Shown here piece after piece: positions 1 to 16,789 of a stretch of 64,000 bases of DNA; the stretch's first letter is position 1; each line of letters begins with the position of its first letter. Below the pieces are notes generated by a model, which worked only from the letters and a program-made list of their open reading frames with translations, did no database searches and had not been told where the DNA came from. Made by a program: the position numbers and the translations under genes. This DNA comes from a virus (lineage: Duplodnaviria > Heunggongvirae > Uroviricota > Caudoviricetes): the IMG/VR virus record IMGVR_UViG_2908567220_000002, positions 32,001 through 96,000 of that record, one strand, 5' to 3'.

Positions 1-39
1 ACAAACAAAAACAATCAACTGAACAAAAAAGAAAATAAA

Positions 40-573
40 TCATCTTGTTAACCTGAAATGTTTAGAAAAAGATGACTTAAAACTTGCAACAGGCTCCAAT
101 ACAGCATGTAAATCTCTTGTAAACCACTTAGTTTCCTGCATGCCCATTTTCAGTAACTTTGAAAGTTGATTGTTACAAGCAATAAAATCTCTCTTGAAAT
201 CATTTATACCCGATGTTTTTTTTGCACAGAACCCAGCAATTAGTTTTTTTACAGGAATTCCGCAACACCAGGCCAACTCCTCCTCAAAATTTCTTTTCTG
301 CTGCAAAAGATAAACTTTATGCCCTCTGTTTTTAAGGAACTTTACATTTTCAATGAATCTTGCAGATTGCTCCACTTCATCACTATCAAAGACAATTAGT
401 ATATCACTTCCCTTCGGAATAGTAATCGCATAATTTCTTATGCTCTCTTGCCAAAAGTTTCTTTTTACAATTGATTTGGCATCAATAACTCTCTGTTGTT
501 TCATCTTCTGAAAAAGAGAGTTTTCTGTTTCACCTTCGACAAAAATTATTCTTATTTTAGACAACCCCGCCAT
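40..573 (-). CDS. RloB-like (AbiLii-like) TOPRIM-type partner of upstream ATPase; putative abortive-infection effector
   Basis: 177 aa ORF; N-terminal RIIFVEGETE motif typical of RloB/OLD-TOPRIM family; start overlaps ATPase stop by 1 nt (TGATG). Confidence 0.6.
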   Translation of the reverse strand: MAGLSKIRIIFVEGETENSLFQKMKQQRVIDAKSIVKRNFWQESIRNYAITIPKGSDILIVFDSDEVEQSARFIENVKFLKNRGHKVYLLQQKRNFEEELAWCCGIPVKKLIAGFCAKKTSGINDFKRDFIACNNQLSKLLKMGMQETKWFTRDLHAVLEPVASFKSSFSKHFRLTR

Positions 574-1853
574 CAGAGTAGCTCCGATACTAATGATGTG
601 TCAGGTAAGACACCAAAGACATCTCTCTCAACAGCGTTTCGCATGCTACGGTCATTTTTTTTAACAACTGAATTTGCTTCAACAAACTCCGAATAGTCTT
701 TCGTTTTTTTAATAAAAATGAACGAGTGAACAGGCAGATCCAACTCAAAAATATCCATGTTATGTGTTGTATAGAAAAACTGAGTATTTTCTTTCAAATT
801 AGATATAATCAGCGCCACAATCATACGCTCTAACTCTGAATGTGTATAAGCCAATTTCTCGTCAAGAAAATAAGTCATTGATGGTATTAGAGATTGCTTA
901 CCTAGTCTTTCACAATCAGAGATAATAGCGCTTATAAAATGCGCTACCGTCACTGCCTCGTATGTTCCTCGAGAAAGACGGTCTGAGTTAATTATTTCAC
1001 CTTTACTGGTAACGACAAGAGAATCAGAGTTTTTAAATTTAATCAGATAAACCGCAGATGATTTATTTTCATCCCCGTCACTTTCAGACTCCAGCATCTC
1101 GGTAACTCCTATAATACTTGAATCGAAAGTGCGAATTATCCTTTCAAGAATATTTTTATTCATTCCTGAAATTGCAGTGGTACTCTCTTTAGTTTCAGAC
1201 AACAAATAGTACCATCCACCAAAAAACTTAAGTTGCTTGAAAAACTCCAATACAACTGGTTCGCTATCAGTAGCTAGTTCCTGAAAAAAATATTCTGTAT
1301 CTCCTGGGGCCCTTCCAGAAAAGAGTTGATTCAGTTTTTCTGTGGTTTTATAGCAAGAATCATTTAATGCTATTTGAACAAAACCATATTTAATTTCTTT
1401 GATTATGTGCGCTCCGCCTTCACTGGTAGCAAAGCGTACATACAAACGATGATGAAAATGTTCCTCCGTAGCAAAGTCCACTTCAAACGAAGCATCATTA
1501 TTTTTATTATTCACTCGCAGATTACTCCGCAACTCTTTGGTTCTTAGAAACACCTGAATTCCACAAAGAATTCGCCCTAGTGACGTCTTACCTGAAGCAT
1601 TCCCCCCCGTTATGATACAGACTTTTTTATAGTAAAATTTAGGCCGTCCAGCCAAAAACTCCCCATCAAGAGGCATGTTTACAGGTTTCCTTGGATAGGA
1701 CAGGTTAAGCTCTGCATCCTCAAAAGCGTACAAATTGATAAATCTCAATCGTGTAAATATCATTCTTATCTTCCATATGTTGGAACTTAACGTAAGTATT
1801 GTCCAGACCTTGATGAACGTCAACAAGATTGATAGCTGATGCACTTCTATCAT
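573..1853 (-). CDS. ABC/AAA-type ATPase (AbiLi-like), first gene of two-gene putative defence pair
   Basis: Walker A GGNASGKTS, Walker B YFLDE, C-terminal TTHN H-loop-like motif; likely true start at internal Met MIFTRLRF (about 1763), where a GGAAG RBS precedes ATG. Confidence 0.65.
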   Translation of the reverse strand: MIEVHQLSILLTFIKVWTILTLSSNIWKIRMIFTRLRFINLYAFEDAELNLSYPRKPVNMPLDGEFLAGRPKFYYKKVCIITGGNASGKTSLGRILCGIQVFLRTKELRSNLRVNNKNNDASFEVDFATEEHFHHRLYVRFATSEGGAHIIKEIKYGFVQIALNDSCYKTTEKLNQLFSGRAPGDTEYFFQELATDSEPVVLEFFKQLKFFGGWYYLLSETKESTTAISGMNKNILERIIRTFDSSIIGVTEMLESESDGDENKSSAVYLIKFKNSDSLVVTSKGEIINSDRLSRGTYEAVTVAHFISAIISDCERLGKQSLIPSMTYFLDEKLAYTHSELERMIVALIISNLKENTQFFYTTHNMDIFELDLPVHSFIFIKKTKDYSEFVEANSVVKKNDRSMRNAVERDVFGVLPDTSLVSELL

Positions 1854-2410
1854 CAGTTATCAGAAAAGCACCGAAGTGCCACGCACATTGGAAGGAAAAG
1901 CATGGTTTCAGCCATCGCCAACCAAACATCAATGCGATTTCTACAAGTTTTCAGGCTCCAGTCAGGGTGATTCTTTTTTAACTGTTCTGCCATTTTCAGC
2001 TTGCTCATTCCCAGCCCTTCATATCTTTGTCGGAGGATACAAATCAATCCCGGATGCTCTGCCAACACTTCACTAATTACCCGATCGATACATAACGCCT
2101 CGGCATCAGTACAATAAGCCAGCCCGCTCTTTTGCTTGCTGTTGATCATCTCACGCAAAAACGCTTCCAGCTCAGTTTTATCAATCCCTGATTTTTTTAT
2201 TCTGCGCAGAGCTTCATTGATCGCAGTTTTTGTAAGTGTTTTGGATGCCAGCAACTGATTGAACATATTTCCTGGTTTGCCACCACCTATGTACGACCAA
2301 CGCCCCCACATCCGTAATTTCCCCTGGATCCAGACGGCTTCCAGCGTTTTTAGACGTAAATGCTCGCCGCTTTTGCCTGTAATTTCCGGGTATATCATAT
2401 TTACGATCAC
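1853..2410 (-). CDS. putative late antiterminator Q-like protein (prophage A)
   Basis: 185 aa ORF immediately downstream of rusA in early-right operon, the canonical Q position; assignment mainly positional. Confidence 0.5.
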   Translation of the reverse strand: MIVNMIYPEITGKSGEHLRLKTLEAVWIQGKLRMWGRWSYIGGGKPGNMFNQLLASKTLTKTAINEALRRIKKSGIDKTELEAFLREMINSKQKSGLAYCTDAEALCIDRVISEVLAEHPGLICILRQRYEGLGMSKLKMAEQLKKNHPDWSLKTCRNRIDVWLAMAETMLFLPMCVALRCFSDN

Positions 2411-2416
2411 TCACTC

Positions 2417-2767
2417 TCAATTTTGTAAATCTTCACGCCCAGCCGCCCCCCCAGGAACGCGCTGACCGCGCACAATATTGATTTCATCAAACTGCTCGTC
2501 GTCTATGAGAAGTCCGGCATGCGTCAGCGCATCCAGTGGTGCTTTCAGAATATTGTCCAGGTCACAACGGCGCTTATCCGGTGGCTCTGCAATAATCTTT
2601 ATCGCCAGCCTTCCGGACAGGTTTAATTTCAGTCGCTGCTGGCGAACAATTAGCGCCACATCACGGCGATAACGCTCACCGGCTTTTGAAACAAAATATG
2701 TGCTGCCACGACGTCGCCAGTAGGTATTCACCGTCGGCGGGTAAGGCAAAACAAACTCTATACGCAT
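2417..2767 (-). CDS. rusA: Holliday junction resolvase RusA
   Basis: 116 aa; LPYPPTVNTYWRRRG and DLDNILKAPLDALTHAG motifs characteristic of RusA. Confidence 0.9.
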   Translation of the reverse strand: MRIEFVLPYPPTVNTYWRRRGSTYFVSKAGERYRRDVALIVRQQRLKLNLSGRLAIKIIAEPPDKRRCDLDNILKAPLDALTHAGLLIDDEQFDEINIVRGQRVPGGAAGREDLQN

Positions 2768-2779
2768 CAGTAACCTCTT

Positions 2780-3829
2780 TTACCCGAGCACGCCGGTTGC
2801 AAAGGCGTGATCAAGAAAACGAAAAATTAAATCAACCTGAGAACCATGCTTTTCTTCGAACGCCAGCGGATCCGCATGAAGTTCGTTGTGATGCTCCCGG
2901 CACAGCGGTAGCGTGAAAATATCGTGAGCTTTTGTCCCCATTCCGCCCTGAGCATGACCAATCAGGTGATGGGGATCATCAGCTGGCTTACCACAGCACG
3001 AACACGGCTGTGTCTTTACCCAGCGTGTGTATTTCTCATTGACCCAACGGCGACGTTTAGGTCGTTTCATGAAAGATTCTGGAGACTCCGGATCAACAGT
3101 GATGCTGACCACCGTCTTTTTGTGAGGCGGGTTTTGTTGCTGGTAGGCGTGGCGCAGCGGCACAATATTTTTTGTGCGCTGCTTCAGTATGCTGGTGGCG
3201 CTCTGCTCTCCCGGTACGATGTCACTTTCGCGATACACCGAGTGGATTTTTTCCGCACGTAACCCCAGAGAACGACGTAATACTGCTTCCGGTAGCGCGT
3301 CCGCCACCTGATTGCAGACCGCCCACCAGGATAATTCAGCCAAAGATAATTCACGCTCCTGCGTACCGCTTATTGCGTGACCGATGACGTCAATCATCCA
3401 TGCTGACAGGTTTTGATGAGCAAGTTGCTCGAGTGATTCGGATGTCTGGTCACGCAGCTGGTTGTCGCAGTGCCAGCACAACACCATTGCGCCGGTACCA
3501 TAACGGTGAATGACGGTTTCGCTGTGATGATAATCGCCGTGTGGCCACTGGCAGGATTTAATATGGCGCAACAGCCAGTCAGACAATGCACCAGCACCAC
3601 CAGCAGCACGAATCACCCGTGCGTTACTGAAAAACGGCAGCAATGTTTTGTCTTCCACCAGCGGCTGGCGAGCGGCGGGAACAACCCCGGACGGCAGATT
3701 ACGCATGCTTTTCGGTTCCGGCTCCACCAGTACCCGGGTATTGTGGAATACCGGCATGGATTCACGGCCCGGCTTAACGATCACCAGCCCGAGTTCCGGT
3801 ACCAGAACAGGTCGAAGTAATACCCGCAC
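2780..3829 (-). CDS. DUF968 (YdfU-like) nin-region protein
   Basis: 349 aa; C-terminal CSCCGKP...HHLIGH...CREHHNELH zinc/HNH-like motif; sits between rusA and Rem-like gene as ydfU does in Qin. Confidence 0.7.
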   Translation of the reverse strand: MRVLLRPVLVPELGLVIVKPGRESMPVFHNTRVLVEPEPKSMRNLPSGVVPAARQPLVEDKTLLPFFSNARVIRAAGGAGALSDWLLRHIKSCQWPHGDYHHSETVIHRYGTGAMVLCWHCDNQLRDQTSESLEQLAHQNLSAWMIDVIGHAISGTQERELSLAELSWWAVCNQVADALPEAVLRRSLGLRAEKIHSVYRESDIVPGEQSATSILKQRTKNIVPLRHAYQQQNPPHKKTVVSITVDPESPESFMKRPKRRRWVNEKYTRWVKTQPCSCCGKPADDPHHLIGHAQGGMGTKAHDIFTLPLCREHHNELHADPLAFEEKHGSQVDLIFRFLDHAFATGVLG

Positions 3830-3830
3830 G

Positions 3831-4103
3831 TTACCTCCAGATGCGTTGCTGGAATGTGCGGGACGGACGCGGTGGGCGTTCGGAGTAAGGAAGCCTGACG
3901 GAGATTATCCAGTGACGATAATCGAGGCTGAGGGCTTTCTTAATCTCGTATCCGTGTCTGCGGTAGCACTGAATTAGCCACTCGACCTGTTCTTCAGTAC
4001 ATGGTGGGTGTTGGTACCAGTCGGTTTTAAATGCGTGTGAACGCCGCCCATGCCGGATGGCAAGGTCGGTATCAGAATTGTGAAATTTGGTTTTGTGCGC
4101 CAT
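3831..4103 (-). CDS. Rem-like small phage protein
   Basis: 90 aa ORF between hok and DUF968, matching Qin gene order; near-identical second copy at 51421..51699. Confidence 0.5.
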   Translation of the reverse strand: MAHKTKFHNSDTDLAIRHGRRSHAFKTDWYQHPPCTEEQVEWLIQCYRRHGYEIKKALSLDYRHWIISVRLPYSERPPRPSRTFQQRIWR

Positions 4104-4174
4104 CTGTTTTCTCTGCTGGCGCAGCAGGTGTCAGGTGTTCAGGCTGACGTGCGAATTGTAAACCAGAATGCCAG

Positions 4175-4202
4175 GAAAAAACAAAACCCGCCGAAGCGGG
4201 TT
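4175..4202 (-). terminator. rho-independent terminator downstream of hok
   Basis: minus-strand hairpin AACCCGCttcgGCGGGTT followed by T-run; same element recurs downstream of hok copy 2. Confidence 0.45.
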
Positions 4203-4270
4203 AAGTGCGGGTGCGTTGAGGATGCCTGACTCATCAGAGGTGGCGAGGGATTTCTCCCTCGCCTGGTCTC

Positions 4271-4426
4271 TTACTCCTCAGGTTCGTAAGCTGTGAAGAC
4301 AGCGACCTCCGTCTGGCCGGTTCGGATTCGTACCTCGCAGAGGTCTTTCCTCGTTACCAGTGCCGTCATTATGACGGTTAAACAGATGACGATCAGGGCG
4401 ATTAACATCGCCTTTTGCTGCTTCAT
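4271..4426 (-). CDS. hokD: Hok/Gef family type I toxin (HokD/RelF-like), 51 aa
   Basis: MKQQKAMLIALIVICLTVIMTALVTRKDLCEVRIRTGQTEVAVFTAYEPEE; track ORF 4271..4483 extends upstream in frame, true start at internal Met. Confidence 0.8.
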   Translation of the reverse strand: MKQQKAMLIALIVICLTVIMTALVTRKDLCEVRIRTGQTEVAVFTAYEPEE

Positions 4427-4836
4427 AGCCTGCTTCTCCTTGCCTTTCGGCACGTAAGAGGCTAACCTAGATTTGCCGTTCATAGATTGAGCCTCAGATT
4501 AATGTATAAGCGTCTTGCAGGACGCATAATGTTAACTGGGGCTTTTCTCTATCTGCCTTTGGTGTTCATGCTTGAGGCAGATAGCCTCAAGCACCCGCAG
4601 CAATTTTACTTAACTCCCCTTTTCCCACAAATCGTTTTTATCCCTACTGGTAATGTTCTCCCGATGTGGGATTCCCACATTGGAACGAATTCAATCAGTT
4701 AAAGACTCATCAGAATCTCACCTTTCTAAGTGCCCACAGGTGAGGCATTGCAATAAAAATAGCAAACGTGTATAAAAGGAGGTAATGCATGTTTTTCCAG
4801 TCTTATCAATCCATTACTGAGAGTTAAGGGGGCGCC

Positions 4837-5631
4837 GTGGATCGGTGCGGTAATTATTTACTTAAAGATGGTCGCAGTTTAGGACAAGGGAGTTTTGGCG
4901 AAGTATTTAAGGTTGATGTCTATAACTTAACCCAGACCCACATGACCACATATGCTCGCAAATACTTTTCACCTTGCCCGGACTTTGACAAGACCGCTAT
5001 AAAAGAGTTGACTGATTTAAGACAGCGTTTTTTAGTTGAGATCAAAACACAATGCACTCTCAATAGAATAAACTATGATTCAATAGCGCCAATAGTTTTA
5101 TTTAATACAAATGGTGATAAACCTTATTTTGTTATGGAATTGGCAGAGTGTAACTTATATGAAGCCATCCGCAATGGTATGAATTACGCGGAGAGGAAGT
5201 CTGCTGTTACTCAGATTTTAAAAGGAATTATCACCATACATGAAAACAACTATATACATCGTGATTTAAAACCAGGAAACATACTTTATTATGCCGATGG
5301 AAAGTATAAAATATCTGATTTTGGTCTAGTAAAAGACAGAGATACCTTACGGGCCGAAATCAAAACAAAATTTAAGCCTAATCACATGGGCACAGATGGA
5401 TATCGAGCGCCCGAAATACATGATAGCGGTCTTTTTTCTTTTCAAAGCGACATATTTGCAGCAGGTAAAATTATCACTGATATATATCCCACAGAAAGAA
5501 GTGAAAAATTAAAAAGATTGATTGCAAAATGTTGCGCACATTGGCCTGAAGAACGATATCAAAGCACACGGGAGTTACTGGAAGATTTTTTAAAAGTGAC
5601 GGGGGAGGTAAATCATGAAGAACATAATTGA
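4837..5631 (+). CDS. Hanks-type Ser/Thr protein kinase
   Basis: 264 aa; glycine loop GQGSFGEV, catalytic loop HRDLKPGN, DFG and APE motifs; GTG start with AAGGGGG RBS. Confidence 0.85.
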   Translation: MDRCGNYLLKDGRSLGQGSFGEVFKVDVYNLTQTHMTTYARKYFSPCPDFDKTAIKELTDLRQRFLVEIKTQCTLNRINYDSIAPIVLFNTNGDKPYFVMELAECNLYEAIRNGMNYAERKSAVTQILKGIITIHENNYIHRDLKPGNILYYADGKYKISDFGLVKDRDTLRAEIKTKFKPNHMGTDGYRAPEIHDSGLFSFQSDIFAAGKIITDIYPTERSEKLKRLIAKCCAHWPEERYQSTRELLEDFLKVTGEVNHEEHN

Positions 5632-6331
5632 AATGGCATGTTTTAGCCTAAAACAACCCCAAAAAAAAGAAAATGAAGACTTTTATTTACCGCCATCTTT
5701 TGATAGCGATTTTAACATTGTCTTTGCAGTAGCTGATGGGGTTGGTTCCTCTGAACATTCAATGCTTGCATCTCATGCAGCCATTCGTGGCATTAGACAC
5801 ACGCTAGGCACTTCCTTTTTCTCAATTGAAAGTGCATTTCATTCAGCTAAAAAAGAAATTGACAATTTAGATATTAGCACTGCCACAACCTTAACAATTG
5901 TTCAGATCAAAAAAAATGAAGTGTTAATTGGTCATTCCGGTGATTGCCGAGTATACTTCAATAAAAACAACAAACTAAATCAGTTAACCACTGATCAAAC
6001 GAGATATCAAGAACTCCTTGATTCTGGTGAACATAAATTACGTAATTTAAGAAATCATAAAGAACGGCTATCTTCAGTCCTAACGAATGCTTTATCAAAT
6101 ACAACGGATTTGAATTTTGAGTTAATGTCTTTTCCGATTAGCCAGCTAATTTATAATGGCTATCTTCAACTCTATGCAATGACTGATGGTGCCTATAAGC
6201 ATTGGGATGTCAGACCAAGGTTTTCTGAGAAGACAATGCTCTCACCAACAGCTTTTGCGAGTAGTTTAAGAAAAAGGATTGAGAAAAACATAATGGATGA
6301 TTACACTTTTATAGGCGTAAAAGTAACCTAA
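5615..6331 (+). CDS. PP2C/PPM-family Ser/Thr phosphatase
   Basis: 238 aa; VADGVGS, GDCRVY and MTDGAY metal-binding motifs; GGAGG RBS; start overlaps kinase 3-prime end by 17 nt. Confidence 0.8.
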   Translation: MKNIIEMACFSLKQPQKKENEDFYLPPSFDSDFNIVFAVADGVGSSEHSMLASHAAIRGIRHTLGTSFFSIESAFHSAKKEIDNLDISTATTLTIVQIKKNEVLIGHSGDCRVYFNKNNKLNQLTTDQTRYQELLDSGEHKLRNLRNHKERLSSVLTNALSNTTDLNFELMSFPISQLIYNGYLQLYAMTDGAYKHWDVRPRFSEKTMLSPTAFASSLRKRIEKNIMDDYTFIGVKVT

Positions 6332-6590
6332 TTTTAGATATCCAAGATATTTACTCTAATTTAACCATAGTATTCCCAACCTCTTTTTATTGGGGGTTGG
6401 GTTCATTAAAGTCACCATTTTCTATTTCTTTCCCGTTAGAGGATATATTATTTCCAGATAAAGAAAGCAACTTCTTATGCAACTTCATATCACGCCATGC
6501 TTCCACCGCGGTAACTCTACATAGTCCATTAACAGTTCATGCCATTCTTCAAAACTGGCGTTATATTTAGTTGAAGCAAAATCAGCCATT

Positions 6591-6764
6591 TTATTCTTCC
6601 TCTTCGTCTTTTATTTCGTGATATGAGTAATTGCAGTAGTTAAAGAAAATATCTTTTGCTTCGTCATGTATTTCATCAGGCGTCGCATCATCATCCACTT
6701 CGAATTCATCCTCGAAATCTCCACCGGCTATTCCCGTTTCAATAATTATTTTGAACTTTCGCAT
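6591..6764 (-). CDS. small acidic hypothetical protein (57 aa)
   Basis: manually translated minus-strand ORF MRKFKIIIETGIAGGDFEDEF..., below the 60 aa track cutoff; followed by a 34 aa ORF. Confidence 0.3.
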   Translation of the reverse strand: MRKFKIIIETGIAGGDFEDEFEVDDDATPDEIHDEAKDIFFNYCNYSYHEIKDEEEE

Positions 6765-6853
6765 TTAACTACCGCCCTGCCGGACAGCCTCCTGATGTTC
6801 TGAGGGCGCCCCCCTCCGGTTAAGGATTAAATTTTTAACAGTGCTAAATTTAA

Positions 6854-7210
6854 TTATTCAGTTCTTGATTTTGTCGCCCTGCGTATCCGCGCTTTCGCGT
6901 TACGCTCAATCTGAATTAGCTTTTCTATATTTTTCCGCCTTTCCTGTTCCTCCTGGAGCAATAACCTTACATCATCTGCCAGTCTGGTTTCTCTTTTCGC
7001 CACAGAGAGCATCCAGTCAAATGGCTCCACAACTGCACCGCAGATTTTACAGCGGACCTGACGCTCTTTTTCGTCAACCCGGACAGAGGCGTGATGGCAA
7101 TATGGTCTTTCCGATGGCTCATAAAGAAAATTAACCTGATTACGAGGGTCATCCTCTTTTGCCGGAAATAAAACGATATTGCTTAACTCATCTTCTGGTT
7201 TTATTTCCAT
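6854..7210 (-). CDS. hypothetical phage protein with Cys/His cluster
   Basis: track ORF 6854..7291; probable start at MEIKPEDEL; CHH...CKIC motif. Confidence 0.45.
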   Translation of the reverse strand: MEIKPEDELSNIVLFPAKEDDPRNQVNFLYEPSERPYCHHASVRVDEKERQVRCKICGAVVEPFDWMLSVAKRETRLADDVRLLLQEEQERRKNIEKLIQIERNAKARIRRATKSRTE

Positions 7211-7907
7211 GCTCCTCTCCTTTGATGCGAATGCCAGCGGCGCGTGGCACATTAACTTCCACGATGCGCACAGTTGGTTTGTACATCTCAATCGCTGTCA
7301 GCCAGTCAGCTCCTGTCATGCGTTTTTCCGCATCGCCATTAGTCCACTGAACCGGCACACCAATAGCCTTCATCGCGATTTCTATTTCCCCGGCAATGGC
7401 GCTTTTTCCGCAACCAGTAAAACCAGATACAACGACAAGAACTTCGCCTTTGGCTGGTTTTATTTCCCGTGCTTCCAGTTCTGCTATGCGCTTACTTCCA
7501 TCCGCGATTACTCCCTCGTAATACTCACGCTGCTCGTTGAGTTTTGATTTTGCTGCTTCAAGCTCAACGCGCAGCTTCCCTACCGTTAGCGCAATCTCCT
7601 CGTTCTCCTGGTCGCGGCGTTTTATGTATTGCTGGTTTCTTTCCCGTTCATCCAGCAGTGCCAGTACGGTAGCCGGGTTAGCCTCTGCTATAAATGCTGC
7701 GTTTGCATAAGCCTGAGCATCTGTTTCAACCAGGCAGTTAGCATGACATTCTGCAATCACGCCACCGGGTTCTCCTTTCCATTTTTGACAAACAAAAACT
7801 CCTGTTAAATTGCCGTACTGGTTAACAGATGTATGCCCTACGATGTAGCTTCCTTTAGTTGCTTTTTCTGCCTTGGCACGCAGTACCTGATAGTCAATCT
7901 TGCTCAC
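7188..7907 (-). CDS. ea22-like early protein
   Basis: 239 aa with coiled-coil middle region, resembles Ea22 family of lambdoid early-left/right regions. Confidence 0.55.
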   Translation of the reverse strand: MSKIDYQVLRAKAEKATKGSYIVGHTSVNQYGNLTGVFVCQKWKGEPGGVIAECHANCLVETDAQAYANAAFIAEANPATVLALLDERERNQQYIKRRDQENEEIALTVGKLRVELEAAKSKLNEQREYYEGVIADGSKRIAELEAREIKPAKGEVLVVVSGFTGCGKSAIAGEIEIAMKAIGVPVQWTNGDAEKRMTGADWLTAIEMYKPTVRIVEVNVPRAAGIRIKGEEHGNKTRR

Positions 7908-8388
7908 TGGTTGCCTCCTTCACAAAAATAATCCAATGTGTTTTATCGTTCTTGCCGGTGCGCTGGCTGATGATTGGTTTCGCGTCGGTTAGTGCCAATA
8001 TCTGGCGGACAGGCACTTGCGTTTCATTCCATTTAAAAATCAGAATGCCGTGTGGCCACAACACACGAAAGGCTTCTTTAAATCCCTGCCTCAAATCATC
8101 ACGCCAGGTATCTTTATTCAGCCGCCCATATTTCTTTCCCATCCAGGCGTTATCACCAACACGCTCAAGATGCGGAGGGTCGAATACAACAACCGGAAAC
8201 GATGCGTCTGCAAATGGTAATGCACGAAAATCTGCTATCAGGTCAGGGCTAATTATCAGTCGTCGTCCATCACATAATGTGTGCTCTTCCTTTCTGATAT
8301 CGCTAAATATCGCCCGGTCGTCATTCTTATCGAACCAGAACATGCGGCTGCCACAGCACATATCAAGAATGGTTGCCGGTGCACTCAC
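7894..8388 (-). CDS. putative DNA methyltransferase (small, DPPH motif)
   Basis: 164 aa; SAM-binding-like LDMCCGSR and catalytic-like VVFDPPH motifs. Confidence 0.5.
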   Translation of the reverse strand: MSAPATILDMCCGSRMFWFDKNDDRAIFSDIRKEEHTLCDGRRLIISPDLIADFRALPFADASFPVVVFDPPHLERVGDNAWMGKKYGRLNKDTWRDDLRQGFKEAFRVLWPHGILIFKWNETQVPVRQILALTDAKPIISQRTGKNDKTHWIIFVKEATSEQD

Positions 8389-8807
8389 TGCGCTACCTCC
8401 TGAAAATTACCCTGATAAAACGACAATATGCGCTGCATAACTTCGCTCTTCCGGCACTCACAGCAAATTATATTTTGGTGCCTGTCATAACGACGTATTT
8501 CTCCGTCTGGTAATGACCAGATAAGATCCGGATCAGCCACAGATGCTTTCTTCACTTTCGCCCTCGAGAGTTTTTTGCGGGCGTTTTGCCAGTCCTTACG
8601 CGCCTGCTCAGACGGGAATAACCCGTAACCAGAGTTGTATACATCGCCGCTGGCAACCAGCTCTCTTGCGAGAACGCTCATCAGATATCTTGTCGCACCT
8701 GTCTTGACTTCCAGTTGCCGTAACGTCTCACGCCCACTCTGGCGTACGAGTTCAACAACCTGTCCTTTAATTTTTTCCCGCTCTTCTTGTGTAAAAACTT
8801 TTGCCAC
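8385..8807 (-). CDS. conserved hypothetical phage protein, possible winged-helix
   Basis: 140 aa; homolog in prophage B at 55796..56218. Confidence 0.5.
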   Translation of the reverse strand: MAKVFTQEEREKIKGQVVELVRQSGRETLRQLEVKTGATRYLMSVLARELVASGDVYNSGYGLFPSEQARKDWQNARKKLSRAKVKKASVADPDLIWSLPDGEIRRYDRHQNIICCECRKSEVMQRILSFYQGNFQEVAQ

Positions 8808-8847
8808 AAGCCCTCCTGAAAATTACCTCATGACCAGAAATTAACAC

Positions 8848-9924
8848 TTACCCCCTGAAGCCCGGCGGAATTTCGTTATCCGGTTCAGAAATATGATTCA
8901 CACAACGCTGGTTGTTCGTGCCGCTTACCGGGAGCAACCAGGGGTTCTCAAAATTCCGGTCCGGTCCAAAAAACGTCGTCGCTCGCTGAACAAATTCCGT
9001 TCCCGTTTTCCCGGTAGCCGCCAAGTATCTTGCGTAACGCCTCACGCCATCCAGCATGGCCTCTGGTGGCACCCCCTCGCGTAATCTGGCCTTCCAGGCA
9101 CTGAAAGCGGATTTCTTCGGGTTTGCCCCAGCACGCAACGGGTACTCCCGCCAGACCTGTTCGAACACATCCGGATAATCCACTCGTCCCACAGACTGCC
9201 CGGTGTTTTCCGGGACTACCCGATCGGCTTCCCGCTGAATGGCGGAATCGGCTTCGGGCTGCTGCAGTTGGTGTGATTGCTCCGGCCTTGCGGTCATCAC
9301 CTGCTGCACAGCGCCCGAATCGGCTTTCAGCGCATACGCTGAATCGGCTTCCGGTGTCGTGCCTGCTAGCTGACCAAGATTGACGGTCTGAACATCCCCT
9401 GCCTGGTTCGTGGCGTTTTTTACGCCATGGACCATAGTGTTTTGATCTTCTTGATCTGTATCTTTATCTGTATCTTTATCTGTCGTGACTCGTCGTGACA
9501 TGTGCGTGACATTTCGTGACGCGCCGTGACAATCGCCATTTTGTTCCCGCTTTCTTTCCCTCTCTCGCTGCGCCCTCTTGCGCTCTGCCGGAGATTTTGC
9601 GGTTTGCGAAATATTGCCGTTGTCCTCTTTAAGCACCTGGCGTTTTTCCCATCCAGTGATTAAATCACCATCAAGTACCCGCCCCTGCATCGTCTGCAAA
9701 ATTGAATCAATTACCTCTTCTGTCACGTCGAGCGCACTTGCCAAATCTTCTGTCGTGACATCAATGTGACCTCGCGTGACATTTCGTGACGCGCTCACCA
9801 GGAGGTGGATATACACTGCCATCACTGTTGCAATTGGCTGCCCTGACACCCTGGCAATTGTTCGCCACTTAGGGTCATTTGGCATGTCATGCCATAATCT
9901 GAGCCAGGCGTTAGCCATACTCAC
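8848..9924 (-). CDS. replication initiation protein (replisome organizer-like)
   Basis: 358 aa; C-terminal region including ...QRCVNHISEPDNEIPPGFRG shared with the prophage B O-like protein. Confidence 0.6.
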   Translation of the reverse strand: MSMANAWLRLWHDMPNDPKWRTIARVSGQPIATVMAVYIHLLVSASRNVTRGHIDVTTEDLASALDVTEEVIDSILQTMQGRVLDGDLITGWEKRQVLKEDNGNISQTAKSPAERKRAQRERERKREQNGDCHGASRNVTHMSRRVTTDKDTDKDTDQEDQNTMVHGVKNATNQAGDVQTVNLGQLAGTTPEADSAYALKADSGAVQQVMTARPEQSHQLQQPEADSAIQREADRVVPENTGQSVGRVDYPDVFEQVWREYPLRAGANPKKSAFSAWKARLREGVPPEAMLDGVRRYARYLAATGKTGTEFVQRATTFFGPDRNFENPWLLPVSGTNNQRCVNHISEPDNEIPPGFRG

Positions 9925-9989
9925 CTCTTCTGATACCGAATCTTTTTACTCACGAGTTGCCGGAAGCGATTCGATATGGCTATTGTCAG

Positions 9990-10415
9990 TCAATGTACTG
10001 CCACAGCATTTCCTGCCGGGCCACCACGGTTCATCTGATTGAAACCGGCGATTGCCACTGCGACAAAATCATCAGCGTCTCTCACCAGTCGCTCCCGCGT
10101 CTCCACCAGCTCCCGAAAATAAGCTGAACTGTGGCTGCGCATTCGGGCCACCAGCAGAGGTGGCATTGCTTTTTCGATAGCTGGTAACAACGCCTGAATT
10201 TTTTTAACCGCATCAGGGGTGTCTTTCTCCACCCAGCGGAAAATTTTCTGAGTATTGCGAGCCAGGGCTTCCGGATGGCTGTCGTCATACAGTTCCGGGA
10301 ACGTCATTCCCAGCTCGAAATACGCTTTGGTAATTTTCGCAGCCGGTACTTTTTCGCCGTCCGGATGCGCCCAGGCATTCATCGCCATGCGGATGTGTTC
10401 ATGCTTGATTTTCAT
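9990..10415 (-). CDS. YdaT-like (CII-position) regulatory protein
   Basis: 141 aa, MKIKHEHIRMAMNAW...; directly downstream of cro-like gene; paralog at 58764..59189. Confidence 0.55.
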   Translation of the reverse strand: MKIKHEHIRMAMNAWAHPDGEKVPAAKITKAYFELGMTFPELYDDSHPEALARNTQKIFRWVEKDTPDAVKKIQALLPAIEKAMPPLLVARMRSHSSAYFRELVETRERLVRDADDFVAVAIAGFNQMNRGGPAGNAVAVH

Positions 10416-10666
10416 GAATCAACTCCCATCAGCTTTTTCGTAGTAGTTTTATTCCTGCCAATAGTTAAAATTGCATCGGCAGAAAATAATCCGTTTGATG
10501 CAAGAGCGATTTTTTCAGCGTAATTTGTTTCGCCGGTATATTCTGTGCGAGGCAATTTTCCGTTATCCATCCATTTATAGATTGCTCTTTGGCTGACACC
10601 ACAAACGTCGGCCACAACAGCAACGCGAACAGTTTTGATTACATCTTCAAGTGTTTTCTGGTTCAT
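10412..10666 (-). CDS. Cro/YdaS-like HTH regulator
   Basis: track ORF 10412..10738, probable start MNQKTLEDV; HTH VADVCGVSQRAIYKW; divergent from repressor. Confidence 0.6.
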   Translation of the reverse strand: MNQKTLEDVIKTVRVAVVADVCGVSQRAIYKWMDNGKLPRTEYTGETNYAEKIALASNGLFSADAILTIGRNKTTTKKLMGVDS

Positions 10667-10690
10667 ATCACCCTCACAATGTGAACTTTG

Positions 10691-10721
10691 AGTACATGCT
10701 ATAACAGAACTGACAGTACAT
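10691..10721. promoter_or_regulatory. putative right operator region (AGTACAT repeats)
   Basis: AGTACAT at 10691 and 10715 between divergent cro-like and repressor genes; same motif recurs downstream of repressor. Confidence 0.35.
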
Positions 10722-10745
10722 TCAAGAGCGAATATCATTGAACTT

Positions 10746-11165
10746 ATGGTTCATGAAGATAAAGCGCGTAAAGAGTTCGCCAGTAGGCTTGCGCTAGCCT
10801 GTGAAAACGCTGGTTATGAACAACATGGAAGGCAGGCAGAAATTGCCCGTCGAATGAAATTAACACCAAAAGCGGTTAGCAAATGGTTTAATGGCGAAAC
10901 AATTCCTCGCCGGGAGAAATTAAGGGAATTAGCAACACTAATAGGAACAACACCAACCTATCTTTTGGGAGAGGATACAGAAGAAAGTGGACAGGTACGT
11001 TTCTATCAGGAGTTAAATCCAAGACAAAAAATCATCATTGACCTTCTGGACGAGCTCCCTGACAGTGAGACAGATGAACTTTTAAAAACTCTTGAAGAGA
11101 AAAAACAGAAGTACAATGCAATTTACGAAGAGTTAGCACGAAAGAAAAAACAAAAAGCCTCTTAA
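10746..11165 (+). CDS. CI-like prophage repressor
   Basis: 139 aa; HTH QAEIARRMKLTPKAVSKWFNG; divergent from cro-like gene. Confidence 0.7.
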   Translation: MVHEDKARKEFASRLALACENAGYEQHGRQAEIARRMKLTPKAVSKWFNGETIPRREKLRELATLIGTTPTYLLGEDTEESGQVRFYQELNPRQKIIIDLLDELPDSETDELLKTLEEKKQKYNAIYEELARKKKQKAS

Positions 11166-11240
11166 ACCAGCATAAATCCGGTAGCGCCTTCCTCCGGGTT
11201 TGTGCTTCACTTTATCCCATCTCATTTTTTTACACACAAA

Positions 11241-11281
11241 ATGTACTAAAAGTACTTTACAACAATGAACGCAAAGTACAT
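11241..11281. promoter_or_regulatory. putative left operator region (ATGTACT/AGTACAT)
   Basis: ATGTACTaaaAGTAC palindrome and AGTACAT repeat downstream of repressor. Confidence 0.3.
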
Positions 11282-11459
11282 TATATGCCTGCCACCCACC
11301 CCGCCCCACAGAATGCAGGGCAATACTTCGAGTTACCAGGCAGTGGTCAGGGGGTAAGTAGCCAGCCCGAGGCGTAAGAACATGACGGCAGGGTTCAACT
11401 TTAACTATGCAGCAGGTTTTTGTTCCGCTACCCCGGCGTTAAGGGGAAATGAGGTCAAC

Positions 11460-11615
11460 ATGGATACTATCGATCTTGGCAACAACGAATCTCTGGTATA
11501 CGGCGTGTTTCCCAACCAGGACGGAACGTTCACCGCGATGACGTATGCCAAAAGCAAAACGTTTAAAACCGAATCTGGCGCGCGTCGTTGGTTGGTAAGA
11601 CATTCAGGTGAATAA
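11460..11615 (+). CDS. YdfA/YdaF-like small protein (DUF1391-like)
   Basis: 51 aa MDTIDLGNNESLVYGVFPNQDGTF...; GAGG RBS; paralog at 60240..60392. Confidence 0.55.
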   Translation: MDTIDLGNNESLVYGVFPNQDGTFTAMTYAKSKTFKTESGARRWLVRHSGE

Positions 11616-11616
11616 A

Positions 11617-11763
11617 ATGAACGAAACAGAATTAAAACACGTTATCGCTCTGCTTCTGGAGGATGCAAAACGCCTCCAGCAACTGGAACCAAATGCAGGC
11701 ACTGAAGCCCGCATCTGGCTGGCATTGTACGCTATTGAGTCAGGTCGTGATGATGAAGGTTAA
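11617..11763 (+). CDS. small hypothetical protein (48 aa)
   Basis: MNETELKHVIALLLEDAKRLQQLE...; ATG 1 nt after the upstream stop. Confidence 0.35.
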   Translation: MNETELKHVIALLLEDAKRLQQLEPNAGTEARIWLALYAIESGRDDEG

Positions 11764-12044
11764 GCATCATCTAAGTTTTTTACATAGCGCCCATTAGATT
11801 CGGTAACAAGAACACCGGGATTTTTCTTAACTTTTGAGGCCACTGATTCAGCAAGGTCAGCAACAGATTCTTTGTCTTCATTCTTGCTTGAATATATATA
11901 TTCGGCATTAGGAAGACGGTAGGTGTTCCCTAAAGAGGTTGTAATCGTTCTGGAGAATCCCTTTGCTTCCATTCGTTCATGAAGCTTATCGTAATCAGCG
12001 GAACTGGAATCGCGAAGTTCGATCCTGACTGTAAATTTTGCCAT
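11760..12044 (-). CDS. hypothetical protein
   Basis: track ORF 11760..12056; GGAGG RBS supports start at MAKFTVRIELRD. Confidence 0.45.
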   Translation of the reverse strand: MAKFTVRIELRDSSSADYDKLHERMEAKGFSRTITTSLGNTYRLPNAEYIYSSKNEDKESVADLAESVASKVKKNPGVLVTESNGRYVKNLDDA

Positions 12045-12074
12045 TTTATCCTCCATTTAGGTTCTGGGTTAGAA

Positions 12075-12330
12075 ATGGAGACCAATACGGGGCTACGTGT
12101 GGTCGTGCGCCGGACACGGATAAGAATCCGGCACTGACAGTTTACTGAAAGGATATTTCCCTGAAAAGTCAGGGCATAACACGAAAGCGTACGGCGAAGG
12201 CCTTCACCTATGAGGCTTGTCGTTAATTTCTTCGACCGTGCGCTTCCGGTTGTGGCACTCCGCGAAATGGCGCGGCGGTAAGTATGGCGGGGTTATTCCT
12301 TCCCCCGTTGAGGACACCGGGTTGTCAGGT
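12075..12330. other. conserved structured non-coding region (copy 1)
   Basis: about 250 nt with no ORF of 60 aa or more, multiple inverted repeats (GGTTGTCA...TGACAACC, CCGCGaaatggCGCGG); second copy at 60990..61310. Confidence 0.35.
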
Positions 12331-12626
12331 TGACCATACGCTTAAGTGACAACCCCGCCATAACTCATACTGCTATAGATATATGGGGACTAACCGGAGG
12401 AAAAATGATAGTTCAATGCACAGACGGGAATAATAAGCTGCTCTGGTCATACGATACCGTCAGCCAGAAACACATAATGAATATGACTTTTATAAAGGAC
12501 GGTACTCAACAAAAAATCATTACCGCCCTTGCAAGTGCATTAACTCAGGCGACAAGCCAAATTCTGCTATCTGATAACGTTAATGGAGTATCTGATATTG
12601 GCTCGATGACCGGGAGGGAGTGCTAA
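12330..12626 (+). CDS. hypothetical protein
   Basis: 98 aa ORF; overlaps 3-prime end of convergent ORF 12567..12836; lies where prophage B has dicF. Confidence 0.3.
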   Translation: MTIRLSDNPAITHTAIDIWGLTGGKMIVQCTDGNNKLLWSYDTVSQKHIMNMTFIKDGTQQKIITALASALTQATSQILLSDNVNGVSDIGSMTGREC

Positions 12627-12836
12627 TACAACATTCCAGTAACCCGAGTGGGGCACGGTAATATTGGCAGGGAATCGTTCATAGAAACCGCCGTAATAGG
12701 TAAAACGCCCGCCCCGCTTGAAAGCCTGGTAATTTGAATCATCCATTAATAAAACATTAATCTGGTGTGAACATTGAACCCTGACAAGGTCACCATCATT
12801 CATGTGTTCACGACTATGTATATGGGACATAAACAC
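12567..12836 (-). CDS. hypothetical protein
   Basis: 89 aa ORF convergent with 12330..12626. Confidence 0.3.
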   Translation of the reverse strand: MFMSHIHSREHMNDGDLVRVQCSHQINVLLMDDSNYQAFKRGGRFTYYGGFYERFPANITVPHSGYWNVVLALPPGHRANIRYSINVIR

Positions 12837-13347
12837 TCCTTTTTACTGTGGAAAGCTAAATCATATCACGGTCTATGAAGTAAAAAGTGAATTTCGTGAT
12901 GCGGTGAATGCGGCTCAGCGCACGCAGAACAGTTAAAAACACAAGTGTTATGGGTGAATCATCCGGCGTTAATTGCTAACTGGTTAACGTCACCTGGAGG
13001 CACCAGGCACCGCATCACAAAGTTCACTTAGGTGATGAAAGGTAGAGAAAATGTTGAATGTAGCTATTGAAAACCAGAACGGGTGGAATTATAGTGCACC
13101 TGCACCTCATAAAACGGGTGCCGGGCGTGGAAACCCGATGTTCACTAACGCGCATAACCGCGCTCAGGCGGTTTTTTTATGCGTAATGCACAGCCACATT
13201 CAGATTATGGTGGGACGTGCAGGGCAGCCGCAAGGCTGGCCGGGTTCGTTAGTGACCGGTATTTCCACCCCTGTACGTCTCACCACCCTTATGGTCGTGG
13301 AAAACCTTGGTGGTGAGTTAATCAAATTCACTAACGAGGCTGCTATC

Positions 13348-13902
13348 ATGGCTACTATCCCTACCCTTTCTCAACCTGACGTAACCATCGAAAATGGTCG
13401 CGCTGTCACTACGTCTGTTGCGATCGCCGAGTTCTTTGGCAAACGCCACGACAATGTTATTCAAAAAATAAAATTACTGGATTGCTCCCCTGAATTCACT
13501 GCCCTTAATTTTAAGGTGAGCGAATACACCGACTCAACCGGGCGCAAACTCCCTATGTACCAAATCACCAAAAACGGCTTCGTTTTCCTGGTGATGGGCT
13601 TCACGGGCAAAAAAGCCGCAGCTTTCAAGGAAGCCTACATCGCTGAATTCGATCGCATGGAGGCAGAGTTGTACCAGCTTAATACCACTACCACAGACAA
13701 AATAATTCCTGGTGATGGTCGCACTCTCGTTGTTCACTTCGACGAACGCGGCAATATCAAATTCACCGAAACCGTTCCTGACGGCGCTCTCGTCTGTACT
13801 CTGGATACTTTCCGCTTTTATCTGGAGAAGCAGGGGTGGACTCTTGTAAACAGGAGCGCAATTAAAAATATGACCGTCGAGCAGTTGCTGAGTATTAAAT
13901 AG
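13348..13902 (+). CDS. Rha-family phage regulatory protein
   Basis: Rha-like N-terminal motif VAIAEFFGKRHDNVIQKIK; GAGG RBS before internal Met of track ORF 13051..13902; upstream extension judged non-coding. Confidence 0.6.
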   Translation: MATIPTLSQPDVTIENGRAVTTSVAIAEFFGKRHDNVIQKIKLLDCSPEFTALNFKVSEYTDSTGRKLPMYQITKNGFVFLVMGFTGKKAAAFKEAYIAEFDRMEAELYQLNTTTTDKIIPGDGRTLVVHFDERGNIKFTETVPDGALVCTLDTFRFYLEKQGWTLVNRSAIKNMTVEQLLSIK

Positions 13903-13948
13903 TTTTCTGGAATTTTCTTAATGCGACAAATTTATTAAGGAGATAATT

Positions 13949-14170
13949 ATGATTGCTCATCACTTCGGAACTGATGATATTCCTCGTCAGTGCGTGACTC
14001 CCGGTGATTATGTTATTCATAAAGGAAGAACATATATTGCTTCGGTAAACAATATAAAAAAACACCGGCTCTATATTCGTGATTTTTCCACACAACACTG
14101 TATTAATGAAACCATGATTAAAGTCTTCCTTGATCGTGATGGTTTACCTGTAAAGGCGGAGTCGTGGTGA
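13949..14170 (+). CDS. hypothetical protein
   Basis: 73 aa with strong AAGGAG RBS. Confidence 0.45.
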
Positions 14171-14287
14171 GCTGTAATAAAATAACTACCCCAATACGAC
14201 ATTCAGTTTAATAAATACATCAGATTCGATTCTTATATGCCAGCAATGGCAGTGACTTGTTCACCCCTAAATCTGTAATGAGGTTTA

Positions 14288-16726: not shown

Positions 16727-16789
16727 TGTTCAACCCCAGTCGTCGCCCCCAGCTATAGTGGCGGCGACCATGATTAGCGAACGATACTC

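What the first reader, a model, noticed from the sequence alone, without database searches (positions are those of the whole stretch)
40..1853. AbiL-like ATPase plus RloB-like pair immediately downstream of the Q-like antiterminator of prophage A
A Walker A/B ATPase with a C-terminal TTHN motif is translationally coupled (1-nt overlap) to a 177 aa protein starting RIIFVEGETE, the hallmark of RloB/OLD-TOPRIM proteins. This architecture matches AbiLi/AbiLii abortive-infection systems. It sits where late genes should begin, so it would be expressed from the late promoter or its own promoter; only about 90 nt separate the Q stop from the probable ATPase start, leaving little room for a standard PR-prime/tR-prime arrangement.
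Basis: partly seen in the sequence, partly recalled or inferred. Interest (0 to 1): 0.6.

Follow-up and report, generated by a model that had tools for sequence, protein, structure and literature searches.

The report
AbiL-like ATPase–TOPRIM defence cassette in prophage
A lambdoid E. coli prophage carries, just after its Q antiterminator gene, a small horizontally acquired two-gene cassette (an ABC-type ATPase and a minimal TOPRIM nuclease) that brings its own promoter and is most likely an abortive-infection anti-phage system of the AbiL/PARIS kind; this is a real but fairly ordinary find.

Summary
On the minus strand, a 396-aa ABC ATPase (573-1763; the ORF can extend to 1853) overlaps a 177-aa protein (40-573) by one base (TGATG). 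Both lie directly downstream of a DUF1133/Q-like gene (1853-2410).

- **ATPase:** it has Walker A, signature, Walker B and H-loop (TTHN) motifs. It matches PADLOC AbiLi (E 4e-25; 50 of 50 homologues), and its model resembles Rad50 and PtuA.
- **Small protein:** it belongs to a family of ~170-aa proteins (at least 615 clusters). The predicted topology is TOPRIM-like, with near-invariant E13, D63xD65 and NxExE. It stays below the Pfam RloB and OLD-TOPRIM cut-offs and matches PADLOC AbiLii only weakly. Structure searches do not separate it from generic Rossmann-like folds.
- **Pairing:** the ATPase sat immediately upstream of the small gene at every homologue locus I examined. These loci were prophage ends, a restriction-modification island and plain chromosome, from enterobacteria to Clostridiales.
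- **Promoter:** a conserved sigma-70 promoter (TTGACG-17-AATACT) plus a palindrome travels with the enterobacterial cassettes.
- **Late region:** in near-identical ETEC B7A, the conserved promoter/short-RNA/terminator block that directly follows Q in cassette-free prophages lies downstream of the pair. The 35% GC cassette is therefore an insertion between Q and the late-control region, not a late gene.

Defence function and nuclease substrate are inferred, not shown.

The parts
1853..2410 (-). Q-like antiterminator gene (DUF1133 type). This is context: the cassette is inserted at its 3' end.
   Evidence: Pfam DUF1133 E 8e-99 and Phage_antitermQ 31.5 bits, above the 26-bit cut-off. PHROG 753 'anti-termination protein Q-like' E 1e-74. 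It is 74-75% identical to the Q genes of H10407 and E41; only the last ~10 residues differ in all three.
1867..1880 (-). Terminator-like hairpin (GGCACTTCGGTGCT followed by TTTTCT) inside the last codons of Q.
   Evidence: Consensus scan on the B7A copy, L001 13880-13867, which corresponds to window 1880-1867. It is weak, a pattern match only.
1795..1823 (-). The cassette's own sigma-70-type promoter: -35 TTGACG (1823-1818), 17-nt spacer, -10 AATACT (1800-1795).
   Evidence: Found by the consensus scan. TTGACG and ATACT are invariant in five cassette alleles from unrelated genomic contexts, while the sequence further upstream is unrelated (A5).
1771..1785 (-). Conserved palindrome TTCCA-N5-TGGAA overlapping the ribosome-binding site (GGAAGA, 1774-1769). 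It is a candidate operator or translational control element.
   Evidence: Invariant in all five alleles. As an RNA hairpin it is weak: -4.8 kcal/mol, z -1.4.
573..1763 (-). AbiLi-like ABC (SMC/Rad50/OLD-type) ATPase, 396 aa. Motifs: Walker A nt 1584-1607, Walker B nt 858-863, H-loop TTHN nt 759-770.
   Evidence: PADLOC AbiLi PDLC02335 E 4e-25, matched by 50 of 50 homologues. Invariant motifs in A4. AF2 model pLDDT 86.9. Foldseek hits to Rad50, PtuA, the SMC head and Thermus scotoductus OLD (Ts OLD) at E 1e-9 to 1e-7.
40..573 (-). Minimal TOPRIM-like putative nuclease effector, 177 aa. Motifs: EGETE nt 523-537, DSD nt 379-387, NFEEE residues 95-99.
1..39 (-). Right junction of the cassette. The homology shared with cassette-free prophages (late-promoter-like block, short RNA, terminator) begins at about window base 1 and continues off-window.
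   Evidence: Alignment of B7A, H10407 and E41. Sequence after the small gene's stop is not conserved among cassette alleles.

Best explanation
This is a self-contained, horizontally acquired two-gene anti-phage cassette of the ABC-ATPase plus TOPRIM-nuclease kind. AbiL is the closest family and PARIS is the best-understood analogue.

**Shown here.**
- The unit spans about 1.8 kb (window ~40 to ~1830-1870) at 35% GC.
- It comprises its own conserved sigma-70 promoter, a palindrome at the ribosome-binding site, an AbiLi-like ATPase gene and an overlapping gene for a ~170-aa TOPRIM-like protein.
- The same unit occurs at unrelated loci.
- In this prophage it is inserted between the 3' end of the Q gene and the conserved late-control block, so it is not part of the Q-dependent late operon.

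**Inferred.**
- It is transcribed from its own promoter in the lysogen, and additionally by early read-through through Q after induction.
- The ATPase acts as infection sensor and holds the nuclease inactive.
- A cue from a superinfecting phage releases or activates the TOPRIM nuclease.
- The nuclease then cuts nucleic acid and aborts the infection. Host tRNA is the most likely substrate, by analogy with AriB and P2 Old; DNA nicking, as in GajA, is the alternative.
For: **Architecture and motifs:**

**ATPase family.** AbiLi is the best PADLOC model for the ATPase and for all 50 aligned homologues. The ATPase model matches Rad50, PtuA, SMC and OLD heads.

**Small protein.**
- The model is confident (pLDDT 90.6). 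Glu follows b1 and DxD follows b3, which are the defining TOPRIM features as stated in PMC12065111.
- AbiLii is the only recurrent PADLOC match.

**Pairing.** The ATPase lay immediately upstream, overlapping or within 4 nt, at every locus returned for seven homologues. These loci were:
- beside prophage integrases;
- beside phage lysozyme genes in Acinetobacter;
- beside a HindVP restriction enzyme, methylase and Vsr island in Clostridiales;
- at the ttcA site;
- in plain Erwinia chromosome.

**Own promoter:** conserved across five contexts.

**Insertion.**
- GC is 35% in the pair against ~50% in the flanks.
- In H10407 and E41, Q is followed directly by the block that lies downstream of the pair in B7A.

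**Rarity.** Seven of 5426 complete E. coli genomes carry this allele and 17 carry a near-full-length copy of any allele.

**Mechanistic precedents.** PARIS AriA/AriB (PMC11464382; bioRxiv 10.1101/2025.02.04.636281) and P2 Old as a tRNase (bioRxiv 10.64898/2026.07.10.737580).
Against: - There are no experimental data for this family. Both proteins sit in PHROG families of unknown function.
- The small protein is below the Pfam RloB and OLD-like_TOPRIM cut-offs, and its AbiLii match is only E 0.0018.
- Foldseek against the PDB found nothing at E <= 1e-3.
- Profile searches of PDB sequences are non-significant; the best is the chain 1t6t, at E 0.17.
- The mechanism of AbiL itself is still unknown (review PMC13064643), so the sensor/effector and tRNA steps rest on analogy.
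- The late-promoter assignment of the downstream block is inferred. The simple promoter scan did not flag it.
Confidence: 0.7

Rival explanations
1. A toxin-antitoxin-type addiction module (TOPRIM toxin, ATPase antitoxin). Its selected role would be to stabilise the prophage or island rather than to defend against phages.
For: NetFlax places AAA-ATPase antitoxins with TOPRIM_OLD/RloB toxins inside the type II TA network (PMC10440598). The overlapping genes and the conserved palindrome at the promoter/RBS resemble autoregulated TA operons. This prophage also carries a hok-family toxin.
Against: The two roles are not exclusive: PARIS behaves as a TA pair and is a defence system. The cassette also sits in plain chromosome in Erwinia and next to a restriction-modification system, which fits defence islands better than stabilisation of one element.
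Confidence: 0.12
2. A Q-dependent late (or PR'-leader) gene pair, transcribed from the phage late promoter.
For: The pair lies immediately after Q, and only 89 nt separate the two genes.
Against: - The promoter in the 89-nt gap belongs to the cassette. It is conserved at loci that have no Q gene at all.
- The Q-type-specific block plus strong terminator that abuts Q in H10407 and E41 lies downstream of the pair.
- The part upstream of that terminator is absent from phages with other Q types, while the terminator and the region beyond it are shared.
Confidence: 0.05
3. An SMC/Rad50/RecF-like ATPase with a nuclease partner that the phage uses for its own DNA replication, recombination or repair.
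For: Foldseek's top hit for the ATPase is Rad50, and SMC heads also match. There are weak SMC_N and RecF matches.
Against: - The best-scoring family models are defence ATPases: AbiLi, mad3, AriA and PtuA.
- No coiled-coil or Mre11/SbcD-type partner is present.
- The cassette is rare (7 of 5426 complete E. coli genomes carry this allele and 17 a near-full-length copy of any allele), dispensable and positionally promiscuous.
- The prophage already has RecE-type and RusA functions.
Confidence: 0.05
4. The small protein is not a nuclease. It would be a non-catalytic Rossmann-like adaptor or regulator of the ATPase, and the ATPase itself, or a host factor, would be the effector.
For: Structure searches give generic Rossmann, CheY and SIS folds at equal or better scores than TOPRIM proteins. 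No curated model reaches its cut-off.
Against: Near-invariance of exactly the TOPRIM metal-binding positions (E13, D63, D65), plus a second acidic cluster (E97, E99) and K127, across 149 representatives that share only 21% mean column identity.
Confidence: 0.05

Closest known systems
AbiL (AbiLi/AbiLii) of Lactococcus lactis, as modelled in PADLOC
   Same: Both are two co-directional genes, an ABC ATPase followed by a TOPRIM/RloB-type protein. The ATPase and all 50 aligned homologues hit the AbiLi model best (E 4e-25 to 6e-32). AbiLii is the only recurrent PADLOC match of the small-protein family.
   Different: - The effector match is weak: E 0.0018 here and 5.9e-7 at best in the family.
- Pfam RloB is not reached.
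- The host is an enterobacterial prophage rather than a lactococcal plasmid.
- AbiL's own mechanism is unknown beyond acting after transcription in Ceduovirus infection (PMC13064643).
PARIS (AriA/AriB)
   Same: Both pair an ABC ATPase with a separate TOPRIM nuclease and are often carried by phages or satellites. In PARIS, AriA is the sensor and antitoxin, and AriB is a released tRNase effector (PMC11464382).
   Different: AriA models match only at about 1e-7. There is no DUF4435/AriB match for the small protein. The effector here is about half the size of the 35-kDa AriB.
OLD-family nucleases (P2 Old, Gabija GajA)
   Different: In OLD and GajA the ATPase and TOPRIM domains are fused in one polypeptide. 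Gabija also needs the GajB helicase. Here there are two separate overlapping genes and no helicase.
Septu / retron-associated PtuA-PtuB
   Same: PtuA structures are among the best structural matches of the ATPase (E 2e-9).
   Different: The PtuB effector is an HNH nuclease, not a TOPRIM protein. PtuA HMM matches are weak (E 0.002-0.004).
MADS mad3/mad4
   Same: mad3 is the second-best PADLOC model for the ATPase (E 2e-11; 45 of 50 homologues). mad4 is a TOPRIM (DUF4276) protein (PMC12065111).
   Different: mad4 matched only 3 of 23 small-protein homologues, at E 0.017. From my own knowledge, MADS is a multi-gene methylation-associated system; no such partner genes flank the cassette.

Membership tests
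AbiL (PADLOC definition: AbiLi + AbiLii) | ATPase matches the AbiLi HMM | tested here: met
   PDLC02335 E 9.6e-26 (426-aa form) and 4.3e-25 (396-aa form). All 50 aligned homologues match, with a best E of 6e-32.
AbiL (PADLOC definition: AbiLi + AbiLii) | Partner matches the AbiLii HMM | tested here: inconclusive
   PDLC02337 gives E 0.0018 (17 bits) for the window protein. It matches 18 of 23 close homologues and 71 of 149 distant family members, with a best E of 5.9e-7. This would probably fall below PADLOC's own thresholds, which I could not run.
AbiL (PADLOC definition: AbiLi + AbiLii) | Two adjacent co-directional genes, ATPase first | tested here: met
   There is a 1-nt overlap here. The same order was found at every homologue locus examined.
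AbiL (PADLOC definition: AbiLi + AbiLii) | Confers abortive-infection phage resistance | not testable with these tools
   This needs plaque and efficiency-of-centre-of-infection assays.
Pfam RloB (PF13707) | Score at or above the gathering cut-off (31.5 bits) | tested here: not met
   The window protein scores 16.2 bits, E 0.012. Only 7 of 23 and 4 of 149 family members match at all, with a best E of 7e-4.
TOPRIM superfamily | Conserved Glu after b1 and a DxD motif after b3 (as defined in PMC12065111) | tested here: met
   In the model, b1 is residues 8-12 followed by E13, and b3 is residues 57-63 running into D63-S-D65. These residues are near-invariant in 149 representatives.
TOPRIM superfamily | Fold similarity to solved TOPRIM domains above other folds | tested here: inconclusive
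ABC ATPase of the AAA_15/AAA_21 (OLD/SMC-like) class | Walker A, signature, Walker B and H-loop motifs, and an ABC-head fold | tested here: met
   GGNASGKT, LSRGT, DE and TTHN are invariant in A4. Foldseek hits Rad50, PtuA, SMC and OLD at E 1e-9 to 1e-7 with probability 1.00. Pfam AAA_15 itself is just below cut-off (28.7 against 32.1 bits), but many homologues carry precomputed PF13175 or PF13304 hits.
PARIS | AriB-type (DUF4435) TOPRIM effector and AriA-type ATPase | tested here: not met
   No DUF4435 or AriB match in the Pfam or PADLOC scans of the protein or its family. AriA models match only at about 1e-7, far weaker than AbiLi.
Lambdoid Q-dependent late operon | Gene lies downstream of the late promoter/terminator unit served by Q | tested here: not met
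   The conserved Q-adjacent block with its strong terminator lies downstream of the pair in B7A, which is 99.6-99.7% identical. The pair has its own promoter, conserved at loci that lack Q. The late-promoter identity of the block is inferred, not demonstrated.

The most novel reading that the evidence does not exclude
The ~170-aa TOPRIM proteins (at least 615 clusters at 50% identity, invisible to the curated Pfam cut-offs) paired with AbiLi-like ATPases could be a distinct, experimentally untouched subtype of ATPase-TOPRIM immunity. Its stripped-down nuclease may differ from AriB or AbiLii in substrate or in how it is activated. Its placement between Q and the late promoter would add early read-through transcription on induction to a constitutive own-promoter level, which would tie defence dosage to the prophage's own life cycle.
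Probability: 0.2. Interest if true: 0.55.

Novelty: new variant of a known kind. Interest (0 to 1): 0.33.

Why it matters
- It adds a compact, portable ATPase plus minimal-TOPRIM cassette to the AbiL/PARIS group. RefSeq labels it only 'ATP-binding protein / hypothetical protein', and standard thresholds for the effector probably miss it.
- AbiL has no known mechanism. A small, E. coli-native relative with a 177-aa effector would be a convenient model for testing whether all ATPase-TOPRIM pairs work like PARIS, a question raised explicitly in PMC13064643.
- It documents the junction between Q and the late-control block as a cargo insertion site that leaves late control intact.
- None of this would surprise a specialist.

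Tried and rejected
**Searches that found little or nothing.**
- Sequence searches of the PDB with the ATPase, and with profiles A3 and A6, found nothing significant.
- Foldseek of the small-protein model against the PDB found nothing at E <= 1e-3.
- The afdb50 fold library was unavailable.
- NCBIfam gave no meaningful hits.
- Megablast of the cassette against the phage collection found no match.
- tblastn found only two distant phage homologues and one plasmid homologue.

**Weak or negative regulatory evidence.**
- The conserved palindrome folded as an RNA hairpin is not better than shuffles: z -1.4.
- The simple promoter scan did not flag the presumed late promoter in the downstream block.
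- Rfam gave only a sub-threshold, full-length isrK-like match there: 21.6 against 50 bits, E 0.15. I treat this as a hint only.

**Families considered and rejected as memberships.**
- PARIS: no DUF4435 match.
- Septu: no HNH effector.
- Gabija and Old: ATPase and TOPRIM are not fused here, and there is no helicase.
- MADS: no partner genes.
- RecF/SMC repair ATPases: matches at E about 0.01 only.

**Other.**
- The 426-aa reading of the ATPase ORF is rejected in favour of the 396-aa one.
- I could not obtain a bona fide RloB or AbiLii alignment for a profile-profile comparison.
Full report
**1. Observation**

All relevant genes are on the minus strand. In order they are a DUF968 gene (2780-3829), RusA (2417-2767), a Q-like gene (1853-2410), a large ORF (573-1853) and a 177-aa ORF (40-573). 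The last two overlap by one base: the sequence TGATG holds stop TGA at 575-573 and ATG at 573-571.

The functional start of the large ORF is ATG 1763-1761, giving 396 aa. The evidence is:
- Fifty homologues align from MIFTR and are about 396-400 aa long.
- PGAP uses that start in ETEC B7A.
- GGAAGA lies 5 nt upstream.
- A conserved promoter lies inside the longer reading frame.

The Q identity is sound. DUF1133 scores E 8e-99, Phage_antitermQ scores 31.5 bits against a 26-bit cut-off, and PHROG 'anti-termination protein Q-like' scores E 1e-74.

**2. The ATPase**

Alignment A4 (50 sequences, 35-89% identity to the window protein) has these invariant motifs:
- Walker A: G53, N55, G58, K59, T60.
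- ABC signature: R262, S264, G266, T267.
- Walker B: D301, E302.

Pfam AAA_15 is just under its cut-off (28.7 against 32.1 bits). PADLOC's AbiLi model PDLC02335 matches at E 4e-25 and is matched by all 50 homologues. The weaker matches are mad3 (2e-11), PDC-M12A, AriA (1e-7) and PtuA.

The AlphaFold model (pLDDT 86.9) matches Rad50, E. coli PtuA (Septu and retron complexes), SMC heads and the Thermus scotoductus OLD nuclease (Ts OLD) at E 1e-9 to 1e-7.

**3. The small protein**

A word-indexed search found only 25 relatives, none with a Pfam assignment. A full HMMER profile search found 615 representative clusters at E <= 1e-3. The 150 best listed are mostly about 160-190 aa long.

Across 149 representatives (mean column identity 21%), the near-invariant positions are E13, G14, E17, D63, D65, N76, Q92, N95, E97, E99, F126 and K127.

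The AlphaFold model is confident (pLDDT 90.6, pTM 0.86). Its order of elements is b1(8-12)-a1-b2(34-37)-a2-b3(57-63)-a3-b4(86-92) followed by a helical tail. Glu follows b1 and DxD follows b3, which are the defining TOPRIM features as summarised in PMC12065111.

Curated models do not reach their thresholds:
- RloB scores 16.2 against 31.5 bits, and OLD-like_TOPRIM 14.7 against 23.2 bits.
- PADLOC AbiLii scores E 0.0018.
- At family level, AbiLii is the only recurrent PADLOC match (18 of 23 and 71 of 149 members; best 5.9e-7), while Pfam TOPRIM and RloB models match a minority weakly.

Structure comparison is compatible but not discriminating:
- Foldseek finds nothing at E <= 1e-3.

I therefore call it TOPRIM-like on motif and topology, AbiLii-like on weak profile evidence, and not a demonstrated member of Pfam RloB.

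**4. The pair is a portable unit with its own promoter**

The ATPase gene was immediately upstream, overlapping or within 4 nt, at every locus returned for seven small-protein homologues:
- Beside the integrase of Rac-like prophages (L004-L007).
- Alone between ttcA and a usp gene (L011).
- Next to a giant LPD/MuF protein in another prophage (L012-L014).
- In plain Erwinia chromosome (L015).
- Beside phage lysozyme genes in Acinetobacter (L008-L010).
- Beside an integrase (L019).
- Next to a HindVP restriction enzyme, C5-methylase and Vsr island in a Clostridiales bacterium (L016-L018).

The ~70 nt upstream of the ATPase start from five enterobacterial contexts align as follows (A5):
- TTGACG, a 17-nt spacer and (A/G)ATACT are invariant.
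- The palindrome TTCCA-N5-TGGAA, which overlaps the ribosome-binding site, is also invariant.
- Sequence further upstream is unrelated.

Sequence after the small gene's stop is not conserved. The cassette is therefore promoter plus two genes. As RNA the palindrome is a weak hairpin (z -1.4), so a DNA operator is at least as likely.

**5. Relation to the late region**

The window starts 39 nt after the small gene's stop, so I used ETEC B7A, which is 99.6% identical over window 1-2410. There the pair is followed by:
- a 280-nt spacer;
- a 65-aa ORF;
- a DNA methyltransferase;
- tRNA-Ile, tRNA-Arg and tRNA-Arg;
- TerB and DUF3927 genes;
- holins, an endolysin and terminase.

In H10407 and E41, prophages with the same DUF1133-type Q lack the pair, and Q is followed directly by that same spacer.

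The shared block begins at the H10407 Q stop. It contains three elements:
- A promoter-like element: TTGATT, 17 nt, then TGnTTCAAT. This is my reading; the simple scan did not flag it.
- About 75 nt of sequence downstream of it.
- A strong intrinsic terminator, AACCCGCTTTATGCGGGTTTTTTT.

The part upstream of the terminator is absent from phages with other Q types, whereas the terminator and the region beyond it are shared with phiP27 and Stx2 phages. That is what one expects of a Q-specific late promoter and Q-utilisation region. Rfam gives a full-length but sub-threshold isrK-like match exactly on this ~75-nt unit: 21.6 against 50 bits. IsrK is a terminated short transcript in the Gifsy-1 prophage whose read-through form is an mRNA (PMC4825925).

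GC content falls to 32-39% across the pair, against about 50% on both sides. The pair is therefore an insertion between the 3' end of Q and the late-control block. Q itself looks intact: it is 74-75% identical to the cassette-free alleles, and only the naturally variable last ~10 residues differ.

**6. Frequency**

This allele is in 7 of 5426 complete E. coli genomes, always after Q. Seventeen genomes carry a near-full-length copy of any allele detectable at DNA level. They are annotated only as ATP-binding protein plus hypothetical protein.

The allele is absent from deposited phage genomes at DNA level, and only two phage records hold distant protein homologues. Both proteins nevertheless fall in PHROG families of unknown function.

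**7. Mechanism**

Shown here: the architecture, the motifs, the family relationships, the portability, the cassette's own promoter and the insertion site.

Inferred by analogy: the ATPase senses a phage cue and restrains the nuclease, and release of the TOPRIM effector arrests the cell. The precedents are:
- PARIS, in which an AriA hexamer holds AriB, a phage trigger releases it, and AriB cleaves tRNA-Lys, tRNA-Thr and tRNA-Asn (PMC11464382).
- P2 Old, recently reported to be a tRNase.
- NetFlax, which places AAA antitoxins with TOPRIM/RloB toxins (PMC10440598).

AbiL itself has no established mechanism (PMC13064643). The substrate could equally be DNA, as for GajA.

**8. Verdict**

This is a real, correctly spotted AbiL-like ATPase/TOPRIM cassette. 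It is a divergent variant of a known kind and is probably under-detected by current effector models. It is not a late gene. Interest is modest.

Noticed in passing
window 4837-6331 (+): A Ser/Thr protein kinase (Pkinase E 1e-31) overlaps a PP2C phosphatase (E 1e-10). Both are on the opposite strand to the flanking prophage genes, between the hok gene and the replication region. At the equivalent position ETEC B7A carries a ParD/ParE pair instead, so this looks like a second variable cargo slot and possibly another defence-type module.
   Followed up: partly
window 4271-4483 (-): A Hok/Gef-family type I toxin gene (Pfam E 4e-23) lies in the same prophage.
   Followed up: partly
L001 11880-12005 (B7A; just beyond window base 1): A conserved Q-adjacent block: a promoter-like element (TTGATT-17-TGnTTCAAT), about 75 nt of sequence, and the strong terminator AACCCGCTTTATGCGGGTTTTTTT. 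It has a full-length but sub-threshold Rfam isrK match (21.6 against 50 bits). It may encode a short terminated late-promoter RNA of the IsrK type.
   Followed up: partly
window 1771-1785 (-): The palindrome TTCCA-N5-TGGAA overlaps the ATPase ribosome-binding site and is invariant in five diverged cassette alleles. It is weak as an RNA hairpin, so it may be an operator for autoregulation.
   Followed up: partly
L011 4171-6761: In one metagenome-derived enterobacterial contig, the cassette (89% ATPase identity) sits alone between ttcA and a usp gene. From my own knowledge, ttcA is the Rac prophage attachment region in E. coli K-12. No other phage genes were called within the 8.1-kb stretch retrieved.
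   Followed up: no
L012 6637-12534: A 2792-aa protein with LPD1, LPD5, LPD38 and MuF_C domains lies convergent to another allele of the cassette in an E. coli prophage.
   Followed up: no
window 1853-1897 (-): DNA homology to other DUF1133 Q alleles stops at about window 1897. The last ~10 codons of Q differ in every allele compared, and here they contain a terminator-like hairpin (1867-1880). The 3' end of Q therefore appears to be a recombination junction.
   Followed up: partly
window 17016-18146 (+): A lambda-type integrase marks the far end of the same Rac-like prophage, which also encodes RecE-like exonuclease VIII, Rha/Ash, an HTH repressor and YdaT. The prophage therefore spans roughly window 1-18200 and continues off the left edge.
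   Followed up: partly
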